Shown here: piece after piece, positions 2,988-49,893 of the stretch | How positions within the stretch are numbered: position 1 is the first letter of the stretch | How the letters are laid out: every line of letters starts with the position of its first letter | Source: an uncultured virus (IMG/VR IMGVR_UViG_3300045961_000160) | Taxonomy: Duplodnaviria; Heunggongvirae; Uroviricota; Caudoviricetes | IMG/VR virus record: IMGVR_UViG_3300045961_000160 | Strand: one strand, 5' to 3' | Length of the DNA stretch: 59,517 bases | The notes under the pieces: generated by a model | Database searches by the model: none | Seen by the model: the letters and a program-made list of their open reading frames with translations, nothing else | Told to the model about the DNA's origin: nothing | Program-made: the position numbers and the translations under genes

Positions 2988-5209
2988 TATCTAAAATTTT
3001 TAAAAGGATTCCTTGGTTTCTGCATTGAAGATGATTGATTTCCACCTCCAATATGTCTAAACGGACTCCTATTTAATTTATACAAATTTTCTGACTTTTC
3101 CAAATGTTCTTCATTATCAAATTCAGTTCTCTTCTTTAATCCACGACTTGCTTCCTGAATTCTAACAAAAGCAATCAAGGCACCAAGTGAAATTAATCTA
3201 TCCACGTTTATGCCTGGCTGATAGTGTTCCATTTCAACCAAAGCCATGTAATCAGGTATTCTGCTGATACCATAAGTCTTTTTATAGACCTTGCCATTTT
3301 CATCAGTATCCTCATCTAATTCTTCTTTAAGATACTCAATTAAATAACTTAACATGACAGATTTAAAAATTGTTGACACGTTTCTCCAACCATATTGTTG
3401 AAACTGCGTCTTAGATTGTTGGATCTCTTTTGAAAACAACATTTGTGAAGAAGGAACTAAATACTTTTGTTTTCTTTTAAACTGCATGTATTGAATGAAT
3501 AAAGGAACGTTATTTTCCACTATGGTCCATGCTTGGTACCACTCAATCATTAATTCCAGTCTTTCATGAGTTTTATTGATGTCATCAAAACGACCACACC
3601 ATGAAGCTACAATTTTATCTCCTTCAATAAAAGTTTCAACCTCTCCATTTACTTTTACTCTTTGTATTTGAATTGGATTTTTGTAAATATGAATTGAACA
3701 AAGTGAGTCTGAAGTTACTGTTTTACCTTCAGACACGGGGTCAACAGAAGCAAAGTATGTAGTACAGAAGTCCATTTCTTCATCTGGTTCTTCCCATACT
3801 TGTATAGCACCAGTTTTATCTTCTGCAGATTTGTCTACAGGAAAGACTAATATAGGTCTTTTGGTTGTTGGTGATGCAACTATTTCCCCGCGGTTATTGT
3901 ATTCAAGCTTCATACATTTGTAAGGATAATCTCCTTCTTCAATGTCGCGCTTCATTGATTTGACCAGTTCTATAGGAAAGATGCTTTCTCCTCTAAATGC
4001 AAATGCTTCTTCTAGGTTTGTAGGATGCTGTGATATACGGATTTGGTATTGTTCAGGTGTCAAGTCTTTTTTCCACTGCTTTCTTTTTTCTTCAATTGCA
4101 GCAAGTGCAGCATCAATTTGGCTATTGCCAAACTCATCAATGTAAGGAGGCATTGACCATTGTTCTGGAATAAATAATCCAGTTGTCATTACAGTACCTT
4201 TGCTGTCACACCATTTGTTACGCACACCATAGAATCCATTTCCATTTGGTTTGTACATGAACAGTTTAAGAGGTTCACACTGTTTCAAATCACCCACGGA
4301 TCCAGCAGCAATAAAATATCCAGTTGTTATGTCTCCAGATTCCATTGCAGGGCGCATGAACTCATATGTTTTATCCATTGATTTAGCAATACCCGCCTCT
4401 TCATAAAAGAACAAAGTACATAAACCCCCTACACCGGCTGTATCTGATTGCTCAAAGGATAATGATTGCAATACCCCTTTTCTACCTTTTTCAGTTTTGC
4501 GGCCATTCTCAACATACTCAATTTTCTGTTGCCATTCACCTACACCTCCAGGATTCATAGGTCTGTACCATGCAGTATGCTTATTTAGGAATATACGATA
4601 TGCTTGTAAGATTTTCCAGGTTCCGGTAACACCGGTTATATATGCAGAAAGTGACGCACCAATTTTTAAGATTGGTGATTGTTCAAACCAAAGAATATTT
4701 AACAGTTTAGCTGCATGGTATAATGATGATCCAAACTGACGTTTCTTTAATACAACTCCATGATGGTAATCTAATTCCCCAATGAATTCATAAAGAGCCA
4801 TATGCATCTGAGAATCCCAAATGTCTGTAAAGTCATCTTCCTTTTTTACTTTATCTGGAATCTGCAGGAAGTTAATCCAAAAATAGTAATCCCTTGGTAG
4901 ATACCATTTTTTTCCATTGTTCCAAAAGAAACAACCTTTTCTTGATCTTAATTTTTGTTGATCCCAGTAGTTAATAAAATCTCTACTACCTTCTGGTTGA
5001 TCACAGTAATATCCATTCTTTCTAAAGAAGTTACCTTCTTTTTGCCATTCTAAAACTGTTTCATCTAATTCATATTCTCCCGGTTCCTTGAAATAATTTT
5101 TTTGGAGATCAAGTTTAAATTCCTCTCTTGATTTATATGAAACTAAAGTCCATACCCCATTATCATAACAGGGTATGTCTTCATAAATATTTCCAAGTTT
5201 ATCCTGCAT
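2987..5209 (-). CDS. terL: Terminase large subunit
   Basis: VLKKRQFGSS (Walker A-like), FFYEEAG (Walker B), ASVDPV nuclease motif, terminal DRLIS. Confidence 0.93.
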   Translation of the reverse strand: MQDKLGNIYEDIPCYDNGVWTLVSYKSREEFKLDLQKNYFKEPGEYELDETVLEWQKEGNFFRKNGYYCDQPEGSRDFINYWDQQKLRSRKGCFFWNNGKKWYLPRDYYFWINFLQIPDKVKKEDDFTDIWDSQMHMALYEFIGELDYHHGVVLKKRQFGSSLYHAAKLLNILWFEQSPILKIGASLSAYITGVTGTWKILQAYRIFLNKHTAWYRPMNPGGVGEWQQKIEYVENGRKTEKGRKGVLQSLSFEQSDTAGVGGLCTLFFYEEAGIAKSMDKTYEFMRPAMESGDITTGYFIAAGSVGDLKQCEPLKLFMYKPNGNGFYGVRNKWCDSKGTVMTTGLFIPEQWSMPPYIDEFGNSQIDAALAAIEEKRKQWKKDLTPEQYQIRISQHPTNLEEAFAFRGESIFPIELVKSMKRDIEEGDYPYKCMKLEYNNRGEIVASPTTKRPILVFPVDKSAEDKTGAIQVWEEPDEEMDFCTTYFASVDPVSEGKTVTSDSLCSIHIYKNPIQIQRVKVNGEVETFIEGDKIVASWCGRFDDINKTHERLELMIEWYQAWTIVENNVPLFIQYMQFKRKQKYLVPSSQMLFSKEIQQSKTQFQQYGWRNVSTIFKSVMLSYLIEYLKEELDEDTDENGKVYKKTYGISRIPDYMALVEMEHYQPGINVDRLISLGALIAFVRIQEASRGLKKRTEFDNEEHLEKSENLYKLNRSPFRHIGGGNQSSSMQKPRNPFKNFR

Positions 5210-26347: not shown

Positions 26348-26680
26348 GCTCAACTTTAGGTATTGAGTTTGCAAGGACTTGCCTCTGACCAGCTACACCT
26401 ACAATTTTTGCAGGGAGAAAAGAAACCCCTAGTAGTTTCTGTTGATCAAGCAGGCTTGCTAGGGGGTGTTAATGGTTATAGAGGTGAGCAGTTATGACTC
26501 GTCAGTCAGATGCTGCAGCAGAGCTCATTTCCCATTAACGAGAAGACCAGAGGCTGGTGCGCAGTTCTTATGAGATGCGTCCCTGGTTCTATAGCCTATG
26601 TAATAAAATACACAGGGCGGTTTTGAGTTCCATGGCAACGGTATTACCACGGGGTTCCGTCACAAGTGGCGGTGGAGTAC
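26320..26680 (-). ncRNA. Candidate structured non-coding RNA
   Basis: GC-richer ORF-free segment between TACATTTG (26682-26689) and a strong terminator; several hairpins. Confidence 0.45.
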
Positions 26681-28413: not shown

Positions 28414-28726
28414 ATGATGCCCACTGTAGGAAGAATTGGTTGTCTCCACCGTGTGGAGCAAGTAGACTCACACCCTGATTATCAAGGTGTTAGAAATTAC
28501 AGTTCCCACAGTGTTTTAGTAACAGTTCCCATGGTATGCATGGTGTCGGCTCATTTAAACCTCCGGTTTAAGCCGCCTAGGCTAAATCCCTGATACTCCG
28601 TAGGTTGAACCTCTTCGGTTCAAACTCCCGCGGAGCAACAGTCCCACAGTATGCAGGATTGGCTCTCCAGTTACTATCATCAGCCACAATAAACGTAGAT
28701 TGTATAACTCTTTTACTATCATAACT

Positions 28727-30442: not shown

Positions 30443-30817
30443 ATGACAGTTGTATTTATCAAGCACATAGCTCACATAGAAATGTGTGAAAAGAAAAGAG
30501 CAAGCCGTTGGTTGTACTATGGCACCAATAAAGTAAAGGTTGGTAAACAATTCTTTGGACTAGTTCCAATGTATGAAACAAAGACCGGTGTCTTTGAACT
30601 TCGCTTCATGGATGGTGATAAGTTTGTTGATACTATTGAAGACTTTAATAATAAAAACAAAAATATCTACTGTGACGGTGAAGATGTTTACCAACGCCCA
30701 CATATTGTTATGACAATGAATAACAATAACACCATCAAACAATACTTTTCTACAGTAGATGAGATGCGTAACTTTGTACATGCATTAAAAACGCAAGACA
30801 CAATTACATTACCGTAA
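30443..30817 (+). CDS. Hypothetical protein
   Basis: 124 aa in operon. Confidence 0.65.
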   Translation: MTVVFIKHIAHIEMCEKKRASRWLYYGTNKVKVGKQFFGLVPMYETKTGVFELRFMDGDKFVDTIEDFNNKNKNIYCDGEDVYQRPHIVMTMNNNNTIKQYFSTVDEMRNFVHALKTQDTITLP

Positions 30818-30837
30818 CCAATTAACAATTACATAAA

Positions 30838-31260
30838 ATGAAAAAGAGTGTATTTTTTATCTTAGCCTTAATGGCATTAAGTCTTACATCATGTCGCGGA
30901 TATGAGCGTGAGCAGGACAGACTGGATCGTGAAAGTGAAGGTAAAGGAGAGTTGCTTAAAGCAGAGTCAACTAAGAAAGTTCAGATTGAACAAGCAAAGG
31001 CAGACCTTGAGTCAGCTAAGCTTAATGCTCAAACTAAATTGGAAAAGGTTAGAGCTGAAGCTGATGCAAAAATCATCTCTTCTAAAGCTTACGCTGAAGC
31101 AACTGTAGTCAGTGCTAAAGGTGAGGCAGAAGCCAATCGTTTATTAACACAATCTTTGAATCCATTAATCCTGGAGTATATGAAGATTAATAAATGGAAT
31201 GGTAAGCTTCCTACTACAGCTGTTGGTGGTGGTACCAGTGCAATCATTAACATTAAGTAA
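30838..31260 (+). CDS. Lipoprotein with SPFH/prohibitin-like C-terminal coiled coil
   Basis: Lipobox LTSC; AKGEAEANRLLTQSLNP...KWNGKLP. Confidence 0.7.
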   Translation: MKKSVFFILALMALSLTSCRGYEREQDRLDRESEGKGELLKAESTKKVQIEQAKADLESAKLNAQTKLEKVRAEADAKIISSKAYAEATVVSAKGEAEANRLLTQSLNPLILEYMKINKWNGKLPTTAVGGGTSAIINIK

Positions 31261-31372
31261 TGAAGTACATTATCATTTGTGCTATTGCAATACCTGTGGT
31301 ATTAATTATCTGGGCTGGTGCAATTAGATTAATCAGAGAAATCTTTAGGAAGGATCACTAATCATAATTAAC

Positions 31373-31609
31373 ATGGCAAGATACGCAATTAAGCACACCG
31401 AGTCAGGTAAGATTTTAGAATATGATCACTGTTGCGAAGAAGGTGCAATGGTAGATGAGAAAGAACAAATACTTTCATGGGCAACCAAGGAAGAAGCTGA
31501 GAACCAGTTAAAAAGTATTCCTGATACAATATCTGTATGGGATGCTCAAGATGAAGCTGTTCCACCATATAAATGTTCTGCATCTGAATTTGAAGTAGCT
31601 GAATTGTAA
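31373..31609 (+). CDS. Hypothetical protein
   Basis: 78 aa, acidic. Confidence 0.6.
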   Translation: MARYAIKHTESGKILEYDHCCEEGAMVDEKEQILSWATKEEAENQLKSIPDTISVWDAQDEAVPPYKCSASEFEVAEL

Positions 31610-31722
31610 ACTACAGCTACACCCAGCTATGGGTTACTTGGATGATACAGTTACAGAGATTTGGTTAGACTAACCTCTGTTATAAAAAGAGACGTGACTG
31701 AATGCTGAGTAGTAATAGCAAA

Positions 31723-31841
31723 TGTGTTGTTCCCTTGAGAAAGGAAGACTGAACAGACGCTAAGTATGAAACTGATTACAATAAAAGTAATGGCCTAGAA
31801 ATAGGTGGGTAAAACAGTTCAGACAACACAGAGGGGTTCTC
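31723..31841 (+). ncRNA. Candidate structured RNA (three-way junction + pseudoknot)
   Basis: tgtgttgt/acaacaca, tcc/gga, ctgaac/gttcag stems; loop gagaa complementary to downstream ttctc. Confidence 0.5.
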
Positions 31842-31939
31842 TCCCTTAAAACATACCAATGAGATTTTTAAATCTCCTACTTACTTACGCAAGGAAGGAT
31901 TTGGTAGGTAGCACCATATAGTAGTGACGGTGCTAATAT

Positions 31940-32022
31940 AACCCTGTAGTGTAATGTAACACGGTCCTAATTTAATATGGTGTATTCCAGGGCTAGTGTC
32001 AGTTCAAGTCTGACCAGGGTTA
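31940..32022 (+). tRNA. tRNA-like element with 20-nt anticodon loop (no assignable anticodon)
   Basis: Acceptor aaccctg/cagggtt, D stem gtgt/acac, stem gtcct/agggc, T arm gtcag-ttcaagt-ctgac; no encoded CCA. Confidence 0.65.
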
Positions 32023-32267
32023 CAAACTTCGCTGGTTAAAGAGAGAGGTTGGTATCTTACCCCTCGCGTTGGTCGGGGGCTGCAAATAATATTGGATACA
32101 ATCTGATTGATGCAAGCCGCAACATCTACCTCTGCAAGTTTGATCGAACTGCTGTATGCTGGCAAAGATGGATCATGAAGAGTTTACTCTTGAAGGTACT
32201 ATGTGAAATTTAGCACAGTTTATAAGTGTTCTCTGAAGTTTAAGTGCATACGTTAGTAAGAGAAGGG

Positions 32268-32359
32268 AGTCAGGTGTATGGGTATACATAAGGTAGTGTT
32301 GAAGAAATTCATGTAATTCTGTAAAATCCTTATCACATGTTCGAATCATGTCCTGACTA
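32268..32359 (+). tRNA. tRNA-like element with enlarged anticodon arm (no assignable anticodon)
   Basis: Acceptor agtcagg/cctgact, tgtat/ataca arm, taagg/cctta stem closing about 34 nt, T arm acatg-ttcgaat-catgt. Confidence 0.6.
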
Positions 32360-32369
32360 CTAAAAAATA

Positions 32370-32748
32370 TTTTCCCCTGCTTAGTGGATTGGAGTTATGT
32401 AATCAGGTAGATGCTCCCCTCAAACGGTATGAGAGAATGAGTGGCTAAACAATAGTCAGACAACCGGAAAATAGTGACAGTCGGGAAAGTACCGGCACGT
32501 AATGCACCATTCTCATGTGGATATGGAGACTTCTAGTATATGCGGTAGGACATCAACCTACATACTAAGATGTGAAACCACCTGATTAATAATGCTAGAA
32601 ATAGATATTACAGTTAAATGTAATAGAGGATTAATCAGCTCCCAAGGATGAGCAGTTGTAATAGTACGGATACCAGCTCCTAAGTAAGTAGTCAATCCAT
32701 CTGGTAGGACGTGCTACTCCTATTACAACTGAGTGCAGAGGGGGAAAA
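32370..32748 (+). ncRNA. Candidate large structured ncRNA
   Basis: End-to-end pairing ttttcccctgc/gcagagggggaaaa; internal taatcaggt/acctgatta and 12-bp cagttgtaatag/ctattacaactg. Confidence 0.5.
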
Positions 32749-32840
32749 GGATTACGTGTGGTCCTAAAGCGGCACGGTGCTGTTGTAGTGTAGCCTATAA
32801 CTACAAACAAATAAAACAAAAAGGCATTATTAACTTGGAG

Positions 32841-32872
32841 TAAAGGGGTAGCAATGCCCCTTTATTTTTTTT
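32841..32872 (+). terminator. Intrinsic terminator closing the ncRNA array
   Basis: taaagggg...ccccttta + T8. Confidence 0.8.
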
Positions 32873-33700: not shown

Positions 33701-33762
33701 TCAAACTAGGGGTGGCACCAGCGATAACTTCAACGGTGTCCACCCTATAACATTTAACAATT

Positions 33763-49523: not shown

Positions 49524-49893
49524 CTTACTCACATCTGAAGATCCTGAAACAAGAAATTTAGGTATACAGACATTAAAGGGTACGTTAACTGAGCAAAATG
49601 CAATTTATTGGTACATACAATTAAGTAAACTTCATGTAGACATTAATGATCTTCATGTAAGTTTTGCAAAAGCTTCATTAGGCTGTACTTTTTCTTCACC
49701 AATGGAGAATATTAAATATATGTTTGAATACATTCAAACTTATAAAGTAAGTAGTCAATCATTATTTGAATTCTTAATGCTGCATGAAACATATTTAATG
49801 ATAAAAGCATTAGATGGAGAGGCTTATTTAGATATACAAAACAAACTATATGAGTACAACAAATACAGAAACACCCACCACTCCCACAATTAG
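49495..49893 (+). CDS. Hypothetical protein with N-terminal S-x-D-x-E helical module
   Basis: MHSRNQRLINLLTSEDPETRNLGIQTL; immediately upstream of the VWA gene. Confidence 0.6.
   Translation: MHSRNQRLINLLTSEDPETRNLGIQTLKGTLTEQNAIYWYIQLSKLHVDINDLHVSFAKASLGCTFSSPMENIKYMFEYIQTYKVSSQSLFEFLMLHETYLMIKALDGEAYLDIQNKLYEYNKYRNTHHSHN

What the first reader, a model, noticed from the sequence alone, without database searches (positions are those of the whole stretch)
31610..32872. 1.25 kb ORF-free array of structured RNAs in the early region
Seen: no credible ORF between 31609 and 32900 in an otherwise gene-dense arm. The segment has raised GC, many long-range complementary segments and two tRNA-like folds, and ends in a strong terminator. 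A further domain may be closed by aaacttc (32025) / gaagttt (32235). Inference: a polycistronic ncRNA cassette in which tRNA-like units act as RNase P/Z processing punctuation releasing several novel RNAs. Large phage ncRNAs such as GOLLD and ROOL are known to sit near tRNAs, but I cannot assign these to any family.
Basis: partly seen in the sequence, partly recalled or inferred. Interest (0 to 1): 0.78.

Follow-up and report, generated by a model that had tools for sequence, protein, structure and literature searches.

The report
Phage chain of small folded RNAs
The gene-free stretch of this freshwater crAss-like phage is a chain of separate small folded RNAs (two tRNA look-alikes that cannot read codons, a probable self-cutting twister-type RNA and several uncatalogued RNAs) that related phages swap in and out, and a relative of one of them probably lies in an unexplained abundant transcript of a cultured phage, where the idea can be tested.

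Summary
The 1.29-kb gap is real and non-coding, but it is a mosaic of about eight RNA modules, not one large RNA; long-range complementarity is at chance level. No module matches Rfam. Three belong to large phage families: a kissing-loop RNA (31724-31847), two anticodon-less tRNA-shaped units (31940-32022, 32268-32359) and an expanded twister-like element (32500-32742). Four more (U, B, C, E) show structure-preserving changes in one to three relatives; D is untested. Relatives delete, add or swap whole modules. The 240-nt module C starts at a tRNA-shaped 3' end in all four copies and ends at another such unit or at the twister cut site, which supports cutting into separate RNAs by host RNase P/3'-trimming plus self-cleavage. 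No cut, end or strand was measured. The units' fixed acceptor sequence and weak EF-Tu-type T-stem suggest they are also products, perhaps decoys. Cultured Cellulophaga phage phi14:2 carries a long form of the kissing-loop RNA, probably in a region reported as abundant, stable and unexplained.

The parts
31610..31720 (+). Module U: nested hairpin domain directly after the stop of a 78-aa ORF; weakest-supported conserved module
   Evidence: Helix 31636-31641/31705-31710, 6/6 pairs; close relative L642 turns its two G-U pairs into A-U and changes otherwise mostly loop bases. No distant homologue among 639 loci.
31724..31847 (+). Module A (short class): P1 stem, hairpin with UGAGA loop, variable arm (31746-31822), 3' hairpin whose loop can kiss the UGAGA loop
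   Evidence: 167 unique copies in 158 loci; P1 and P2 covary, 69 doubly changed cells against 12.0 in shuffles, 0 of 500; partner loop fully pairable with UGAGA in 99 of 116 short copies, 4/5 in the window. The variable arm is replaced in close relatives.
31854..31935 (+). Module B: three-way junction plus a hairpin with a conserved 13-nt loop
   Evidence: One distant homologue (L070), also right behind module A; 3 of 23 pairs changed on both sides, none broken. Missing together with A in an RNA-library contig of a 99%-alike relative.
31940..32022 (+). tRNA-shaped unit T1, 20-nt loop in place of the anticodon loop, discriminator A32022, trailer CAA, U(-1) A(-2) leader
   Evidence: The same middle occurs in L073/L076 and L260 with different, fully paired acceptor and T stems.
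32024..32263 (+). Module C: about 240-nt multi-branched RNA whose 5' end pairs into the loop of its 3' hairpin (pseudoknot)
   Evidence: 4 copies (window, L640, L641, L642; 3 clearly distinct); 15 of 61 predicted pairs changed on both sides; the 3' hairpin has three covarying versions. No Rfam match on these loci other than tRNA.
32268..32359 (+). tRNA-shaped unit T2 of the AGTCAGG-acceptor family, 34-nt loop, discriminator A32359
   Evidence: Family of 161 unique copies in 99 loci, 127 clusters of middle sequence; canonical anticodon arm in 4 of 161 against 135 of 143 ordinary tRNAs. T2 has U52-A62 where 157 of 161 have G-C.
32368..32473 (+). Module D: multi-branched domain closed by an 8-bp helix; structure not tested by comparison
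   Evidence: 8/8 closing pairs; no homologue among 639 loci and unchanged in L642; folding z -0.44.
32500..32742 (+). Expanded twister-like element; inferred cut between U32500 and A32501; about 120-nt two-arm insert in loop L4; variable P5 (32653-32731)
   Evidence: 136 copies, 108 compact and 28 expanded; UAA in 127, GA in 134, T1 98-99% paired, P4 covaries at all 5 pairs. Window: P2 5/5, P4 5/5, T1 3/3, P5 12/12, P1 1/5.
32749..32825 (+). Module E: two small H-type pseudoknots in tandem
   Evidence: Pairs 3/3 with 5/5, and 7/7 with 4/4; 3 pairs changed on both sides in L640.
32841..32872 (+). Intrinsic terminator-like hairpin with GNRA loop and U8 tail
   Evidence: 10/10 pairs; L640 has a hairpin plus T run of different sequence at the same place.

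Best explanation
One rightward transcript runs out of the small early genes through the array to the terminator (inferred). Host RNase P cuts at the 5' ends of the two tRNA-shaped units, host 3'-maturation enzymes trim behind their discriminator bases, and the twister-like element cuts itself at U32500/A32501 (all inferred). This frees a leader piece (U-A-B), T1, C, T2, D and twister-plus-E, each capped by an end-closing helix or pseudoknot that resists decay (folds of A, T1, T2 and the twister shown by comparison; B, C, E, U supported by few relatives; D untested). The tRNA-shaped units are both cutting marks and stable products kept out of translation. The freed RNAs most likely act in trans during infection as abundant ligands or decoys for host RNA-binding proteins, such as tRNA-directed nucleases or translation factors (least supported step). 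Constant ends let phages exchange modules by recombination.
For: Modules move as units: a 99%-alike relative lacks 31720-31937; L642 has another A arm and one extra module plus an extra tRNA-shaped unit behind T2; L640, at the same locus, has unit-C-compact twister-E-terminator only. C starts right after a unit's 3' trailer in 4 of 4 copies and ends 4-6 nt before another unit (3) or 2 nt before the twister UAA (1). Short module A has a tRNA-shaped start within 15 nt downstream in 67 of 114 copies (57 at 4-6 nt) against 24 of 415 random positions. The family keeps a 7-bp acceptor, T arm and U8 (partly by the search definition), a D-loop GG in 123 of 161, U(-1) in 129 and A(-2) in 123 of 161, the leader bases that bacterial RNase P prefers (PMC4919922, section 5.1 read). 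A49-U65 with A51-U63 in 103 of 161 against 11 of 143 ordinary tRNAs, pairs described as weak for EF-Tu (PMC7826273, passages). Not found in 401 Bacteroidota genomes. phi14:2 carries a long-class A and a tRNA-shaped element in its two early gaps, and two such intergenic regions are reported as rightward, early, abundant and stable (bioRxiv 10.1101/2020.03.07.982082, passages).
Against: No processed end, strand or level was observed: all runs laid were contigs. U/A, A/B and twister/E junctions have no cutting mark; 43 of 114 short A copies have no tRNA-shaped start or second A behind them and 92 of 113 have no tRNA end in front. T2 has G(-1) G(-2) and T1 lacks the D-loop GG. The window's twister has P1 1/5, a 5-bp P2 and no shown T2 pseudoknot, so it may not cut. 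Family copies share descent, so the acceptor and T-stem counts are not independent events. Only 26 of 99 loci with the family also show an ordinary tRNA, and the window has none. The decoy role has no direct evidence. The match of the paper's gene numbers to the GenBank gaps is my inference.
Confidence: 0.55

Rival explanations
1. The tRNA-shaped units are mainly effectors: aminoacylated or protein-bound tRNA mimics with a constant handle and exchangeable middle that jam or distract tRNA-directed defence or stress sensors; release of neighbours is a by-product.
For: Acceptor 5' strand AGTCAGG in 127 of 161 copies while the middle falls into 127 clusters; weak EF-Tu-type T-stem; up to 5 copies per 5-kb locus; the same middle survives a full swap of acceptor and T stems in T1, L073 and L260, so middles are selected too.
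Against: The family was defined by that acceptor, which inflates its constancy; long units with other acceptors exist, T1 among them. No charging, binding partner or target was tested.
Confidence: 0.2
2. The region is a recombination hot spot that collects semi-selfish structured repeats; folds give stability or mobility, and most modules do nothing for the phage.
For: Strain-level gain and loss; tandem A copies in 5 loci; an HNH gene has entered the twister's P2 strand in L642; window copies show decay (kiss 4/5, P1 1/5).
Against: Compensatory change across distant phages in A, twister, C, B and E; fixed spacing to tRNA ends; the same order unit-C-twister-E-terminator in a diverged relative; no transposase or reverse transcriptase among the 48 window proteins scanned.
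Confidence: 0.13
3. Constant scaffolds carry variable guide or antisense segments against host or rival-phage RNAs.
For: Constant ends with highly variable middles in A (104 clusters among 148 arms), the units and twister P5.
Against: Variable parts mostly fold as hairpins of 23-127 nt. In the window 10 of 11 segments have no outside match clearly beyond shuffles; the eleventh is a 16-nt same-strand repeat, not antisense. Matches of 288 variable parts in the fetched loci fell almost all in the same kinds of element. Host genomes were not searched for targets.
Confidence: 0.06
4. The whole 1.25 kb is one large ornate RNA of the GOLLD/ROOL kind, closed by an end-to-end helix.
For: 31607-31623 can pair with 32776-32792 (14/17) and the single-sequence fold joins the ends.
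Against: Long-range complementarity is at chance; L640 keeps E but lacks U; modules occur separately in other phages; no Rfam match.
Confidence: 0.04

Closest known systems
t-elements of plant mitochondria (PMC1920247, passages read)
   Same: Non-canonical cloverleaves with acceptor stem and T arm placed at RNA boundaries, proposed or shown to direct RNase P and RNase Z cuts.
   Different: Here phage-encoded, repeated, with a near-constant acceptor, a long exchangeable middle and non-coding neighbours; cleavage not shown.
Twister ribozyme type P1 (Rfam models; review PMC5408937, passages read)
   Same: Order P1-UAA-P2-P4/L4-P5-P2'-GA-T1', T1 of three pairs, conserved A at the cut site and G before T1, optional P0 and P5.
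   Different: P2 is 5 bp by compensatory change (canonical 3), the GC/GC T2 pseudoknot is absent and no substitute covaries, the invariant G-C closing P4 varies, about 120 nt sit in L4; Rfam does not detect compact or expanded copies.
Abundant intergenic RNAs of Cellulophaga phage phi14:2 (bioRxiv 10.1101/2020.03.07.982082, passages read)
   Same: Early region of a crAss-like phage; its gaps hold a long-class module A (about 3131-3360) and a tRNA-shaped element (about 1760-1850).
   Different: phi14:2 has the long class and no twister core; the paper gives no structure or function; which gap is which junction is inferred.
T4 RNAC and RNAD (PMC3014915, PMC9697503, passages read)
   Same: Small stable phage RNAs of unknown role made from a tRNA region.
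   Different: No match to T4-type phages at these genes in the phage collection; here the flanking units are not decoding tRNAs.
Theta (HDV-like) ribozymes (PMC10879173, passages read)
   Same: Small folded RNA that can start next to a phage tRNA 3' end.
   Different: Only 20 of 113 short A copies do so; A has a variable arm where HDV needs a conserved loop (topology recalled); A is tied more to the downstream tRNA start.
YrlA Y RNAs (PMC4201824, passages read)
   Same: tRNA mimic with D and T arms; one is cut by RNase P and gets CCA.
   Different: YrlA sits near Ro60 and has another arm order; no Ro60 hit among the window proteins scanned and no Rfam match.

Membership tests
Decoding tRNA | 7-bp acceptor stem, D arm, T arm | tested here: met
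   T1 and T2
Decoding tRNA | 5-bp anticodon stem with 7-nt loop, U33 and purine 37 | tested here: not met
   Loops of 20 and 34 nt; 4 of 161 family copies pass against 135 of 143 ordinary tRNAs
Intron-containing tRNA | Constant exon halves that rebuild a 7-nt anticodon loop around the insert | tested here: not met
   No constant anticodon stem or loop halves across the copies printed; no intron family in Rfam scans
t-element | Non-canonical cloverleaf with acceptor and T arm at an RNA boundary | tested here: met
   the boundary is inferred from module limits
t-element | Cleavage by RNase P or RNase Z at its ends | not testable with these tools
   Only contigs were available; leader bases fit in the family and T1, not T2
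Twister ribozyme | U-A cut site with following A, and G-A before T1 | tested here: met
   UAA 127 of 136, GA 134 of 136; part of the set was found with a pattern that fixes the 3' strand
Twister ribozyme | Pseudoknot T1 of three pairs, and stem P4 | tested here: met
   T1 98-99% paired with 2 compensatory cells; P4 covaries at all 5 pairs
Twister ribozyme | P2 of three Watson-Crick pairs | tested here: not met
   5 pairs, with compensatory change at pair 3 (11 copies) and pair 5 (5 copies)
Twister ribozyme | Pseudoknot T2 (conserved GC of L2 with L4) | tested here: inconclusive
   GC is absent; a CC/GG substitute is pairable but its first C changes with P2, not with L4
Twister ribozyme | Stem P1 | tested here: not met
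   1/5 in the window; 0-5 contiguous pairs across the family; the review says P1 is dispensable for cleavage
Twister ribozyme | Self-cleavage | not testable with these tools
   Needs an in vitro assay
Theta / HDV-like ribozyme (module A) | First base within 5 nt of a tRNA 3' end | tested here: inconclusive
   20 of 113 short copies; not the window copy
Theta / HDV-like ribozyme (module A) | Nested double pseudoknot with conserved L3 and catalytic C | tested here: not met
   The arm next to P1' is hypervariable; no Rfam HDV-type match; topology recalled
GOLLD / ROOL large RNAs | Match to the Rfam model | tested here: not met
GOLLD / ROOL large RNAs | One continuous fold inherited as a unit | tested here: not met
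YrlA Y RNA | Ro60 gene nearby | tested here: inconclusive
   None among 48 proteins against PHROGs and 13 against Pfam; the window is part of a genome and not all ORFs were scanned
RNase P RNA / tmRNA | Match to the Rfam models | tested here: not met
   tmRNA is detected as a separate neighbour in L027, L029 and phi14:2

The most novel reading that the evidence does not exclude
Bacteroidota phages keep an exchangeable toolbox of RNA effectors: a constant tRNA-shaped handle, kept away from EF-Tu, displays over a hundred different folded middles, and with kissing-loop, pseudoknotted and twister-derived RNAs it is cut from one early transcript to neutralise host tRNA-directed defence or stress sensing. 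That would be an RNA-only counter-defence island.
Probability: 0.17. Interest if true: 0.9.

Novelty: new variant of a known kind. Interest (0 to 1): 0.66.

Why it matters
It puts several widespread, uncatalogued phage RNA families and a likely processing logic into one locus. It offers a structural reading for the abundant, stable, unexplained intergenic RNAs of the cultured crAss-like phage phi14:2, so an open question becomes testable in a laboratory system. It adds a twister variant that breaks two consensus rules and a natural tRNA scaffold with exchangeable middles. Standard annotation (ARAGORN, Rfam) misses all of it.

Tried and rejected
ARAGORN and Rfam on the window: nothing; only six junk matches at E up to 10. 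BLAST of the whole gap against 50,697 phage records: no match. Exact T1 pattern in viral contigs: 0. Relatives of the downstream 266-aa protein: none confirmed. No whole genome is held for the window. The module A core in 185,579 genomes: 31 hits, near the chance level; 8 carry the flanking stem by eye and are MAG contigs of mixed labels. L035 as a homologue of C: dropped (short, opposite strand to its module A, apparently coding). RNase P specificity-domain reading of the window's A arm (recalled resemblance): no Rfam support, and the arm is replaced in close relatives. SAM-I, pistol, hatchet and group I resemblances (recalled): no Rfam match, dropped. RNA-library depth in the bin with the A core (7764, 3851, 2971 against at most 549, 471, 149 elsewhere) sums contigs of many phages and was not used as an expression level; three RNA contigs stop inside T2, which the repeat itself explains. 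Terminase search in five virus records behind loci: empty, uninformative. Twister queries against cultured phages: only chance-level hits.

Full report
Setting. The window is part of a crAss-like phage: portal and terminase match PHROG families 6547 and 6681, and the terminase's best relatives are crAss-like and Flavobacterium phages at about 24% identity. The stretch is held by 20 listed runs from 17 studies, 19 labelled freshwater or aquatic and 1 unlabelled; 6 are RNA libraries and one may be the source. The finding lies near the head of the rightward arm, between small unknown ORFs and a 266-aa ORF.

Observation. The gap, the local GC rise, both cloverleaves, the aaacttc/gaagttt pair and the terminator are real; long-range complementarity is not above chance and folding energy is unremarkable. 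ARAGORN and Rfam find nothing. The three small ORFs that could be compared break in relatives.

The array is modular. Contigs of near relatives lack 31720-31937, replace 31747-31822 or skip 32663-32721, and one joins the twister's end to the start of module A. L642, 89-98% alike, has the same order with another A arm, an extra module and an extra tRNA-shaped unit. L640, a more distant phage with the same flanking genes, has only unit, C, compact twister, E and terminator. L641, with other neighbours, has A, unit, C and further units. The end-to-end helix of the single-sequence fold cannot form in L640.

A tolerant parse gave 167 unique copies, 116 short, 49 long, 2 other. Among 100 unique long-anchored hits, 94 have the upstream stem and hairpin. 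On 65 aligned rows 93.3% of cells pair and 10 of 16 pairs change on both sides, far above shuffled and slid controls. The UGAGA loop is nearly invariant; its partner loop varies mostly in ways that keep pairing (99 of 116 fully pairable), so the kiss is likely but shows no two-sided change. The variable arm is a linker plus hairpin, 104 clusters among 148. Short copies sit 4-6 nt before a tRNA-shaped start in 57 of 114 cases; the window copy is followed by B instead.

tRNA-shaped units. 161 unique copies share the AGTCAGG-type acceptor, a D arm resembling that of leucine tRNAs (recalled) and a T arm, with median length 102 nt and 127 clusters of middles. ARAGORN of 161, with scattered anticodons; a strict anticodon-arm test passes 4 of 161 against 135 of 143 ordinary tRNAs. 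Ordinary tRNAs in these loci also mostly lack encoded CCA (14 of 145 have it), so the CAA/CTA trailers are normal for them. U(-1) and A(-2) are commoner than in the ordinary tRNAs (129 and 123 of 161 against 89 and 71 of 143), matching RNase P preferences (PMC4919922, section 5.1). A49-U65 with A51-U63 occurs in 103 of 161 against 11 of 143; such pairs mark the non-proteogenic, weakly EF-Tu-bound tRNA-Gly of Staphylococcus (PMC7826273, passages). These counts reflect shared descent. T1 shows that the shape is selected: three versions of acceptor and T stem, all paired, surround one middle. The family's 3' half was not found in 401 Bacteroidota genomes; its only cellular hits were on one contig of a MAG that also carries module A.

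Twister-like element. Two scans gave 136 parsed copies. It has twister's order and key bases, a strongly covarying P4 and a T1 pseudoknot, but a 5-bp P2, no GC/GC T2 and a variable P1. By the review's definition (PMC5408937, passages) it is built like a twister but fails or leaves open three features, so I call it twister-like. The window has the expanded form; its P4 closes with U-A, where most copies have C-G. In L642 an HNH endonuclease gene sits on the opposite strand inside the P2' strand.

Smaller modules. B and E have one distant relative each, with only structure-keeping changes in the predicted pairs. U rests on L642 alone; D has no support beyond an 8-bp helix.

Mechanism. The strongest hint for punctuation is C: it always begins at a unit's 3' end and ends either at a unit's 5' end or at the twister's cut site, two different cutting devices at the same boundary. 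Precedent is the t-element (PMC1920247, passages). Everything about cutting and about what the pieces do is inferred; RNA-library contigs span 30713-32295 and 31033-32353 but cannot show strand, ends or a single transcript. I put processing cassette with stable products at 0.55, units as effectors first at 0.2, selfish hot spot at 0.13, guides at 0.06 and one giant RNA at 0.04.

Link to a cultured phage. A long-class query hit phi14:2 best, weakly (E 3); the region shows the full motif with a compensated hairpin, and a tRNA-shaped element with an enlarged middle lies in the gap before it (folding z -1.6, weak partial tmRNA-model match). The phi14:2 preprint reports two long intergenic regions transcribed above most genes, early and persistently, function unknown (passages). 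It uses another gene numbering and its supplements are closed, so the match of gaps to junctions is inferred. Phages phi4:1 and phi17:2 match the 3' half of the long class, and phi4:1 lacks the 5' half at that place.

Novelty. Ten paper searches (listings, with passages read where stated) found no description of these families; the library lacks most subscription papers. In Fremin 2023 (PMC10690425; passages, and the four supplement files held as text searched without hits) the alignment archives could not be read, so parts may be listed there as unnamed candidates. PMC10879173, PMC4201824, PMC3014915, PMC9697503 and PMC13573597 were seen as passages. This scan's earlier notes already describe the tRNA look-alikes, the twister variant, kissing-loop RNAs and similar arrays on other DNA; I tested the main claims here. 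The sequence look-up for C and D returned nothing. Verdict: a real array of uncatalogued phage RNAs, a new variant of known kinds, with a testable processing model.

Noticed in passing
window 31765, 32202, 32571: The word TRTGAAAY occurs once each in the A arm, module C and the twister's extra arm (3 in 1263 nt against 9 in 28,526 nt of the arm). It may be a shared T-loop-type or protein-binding element; noticed after the fact.
   Followed up: partly
L642 1749-2231 (minus strand): A 160-aa HNH endonuclease gene inserted in the twister's P2' strand; a 3-bp P2 and the GA-GGG end remain on the downstream side.
   Followed up: partly
L020 and L115, just after module A's P1': Long-class module A is cut short and followed by an ORF start that looks like a homing-endonuclease gene (recalled resemblance).
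   Followed up: no
window 26420-26680: Non-coding stretch at the point where the two arms diverge has 74-84% matches in L019, L164 and L161; probably another conserved element.
   Followed up: no
window 28440-28492 and 33705-33761: Two more short intergenic stretches with homologues (L287/L320; L640).
   Followed up: no
window 32682-32697 and 49745-49760: Exact 16-nt same-strand repeat between the twister's P5 interior and a coding region; probably chance given the number of positions tried.
   Followed up: partly
L168, L178, L220, L237, L245: Tandem copies of module A with different variable arms.
   Followed up: no
L179, L192, L045, L031, L028: A second family of about 140-155-nt tRNA-shaped RNAs with other acceptors and a conserved internal segment.
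   Followed up: no
L646 2480-2600 (Cellulophaga phage phi4:1): The 3' domain of long-class module A stands alone between two genes, so the long class is itself a two-part RNA.
   Followed up: partly
L398 3106-3431 (phi14:2): Three tiny annotated minus-strand ORFs (gp007-009) overlap the long-class module A and are probably miscalls.
   Followed up: no
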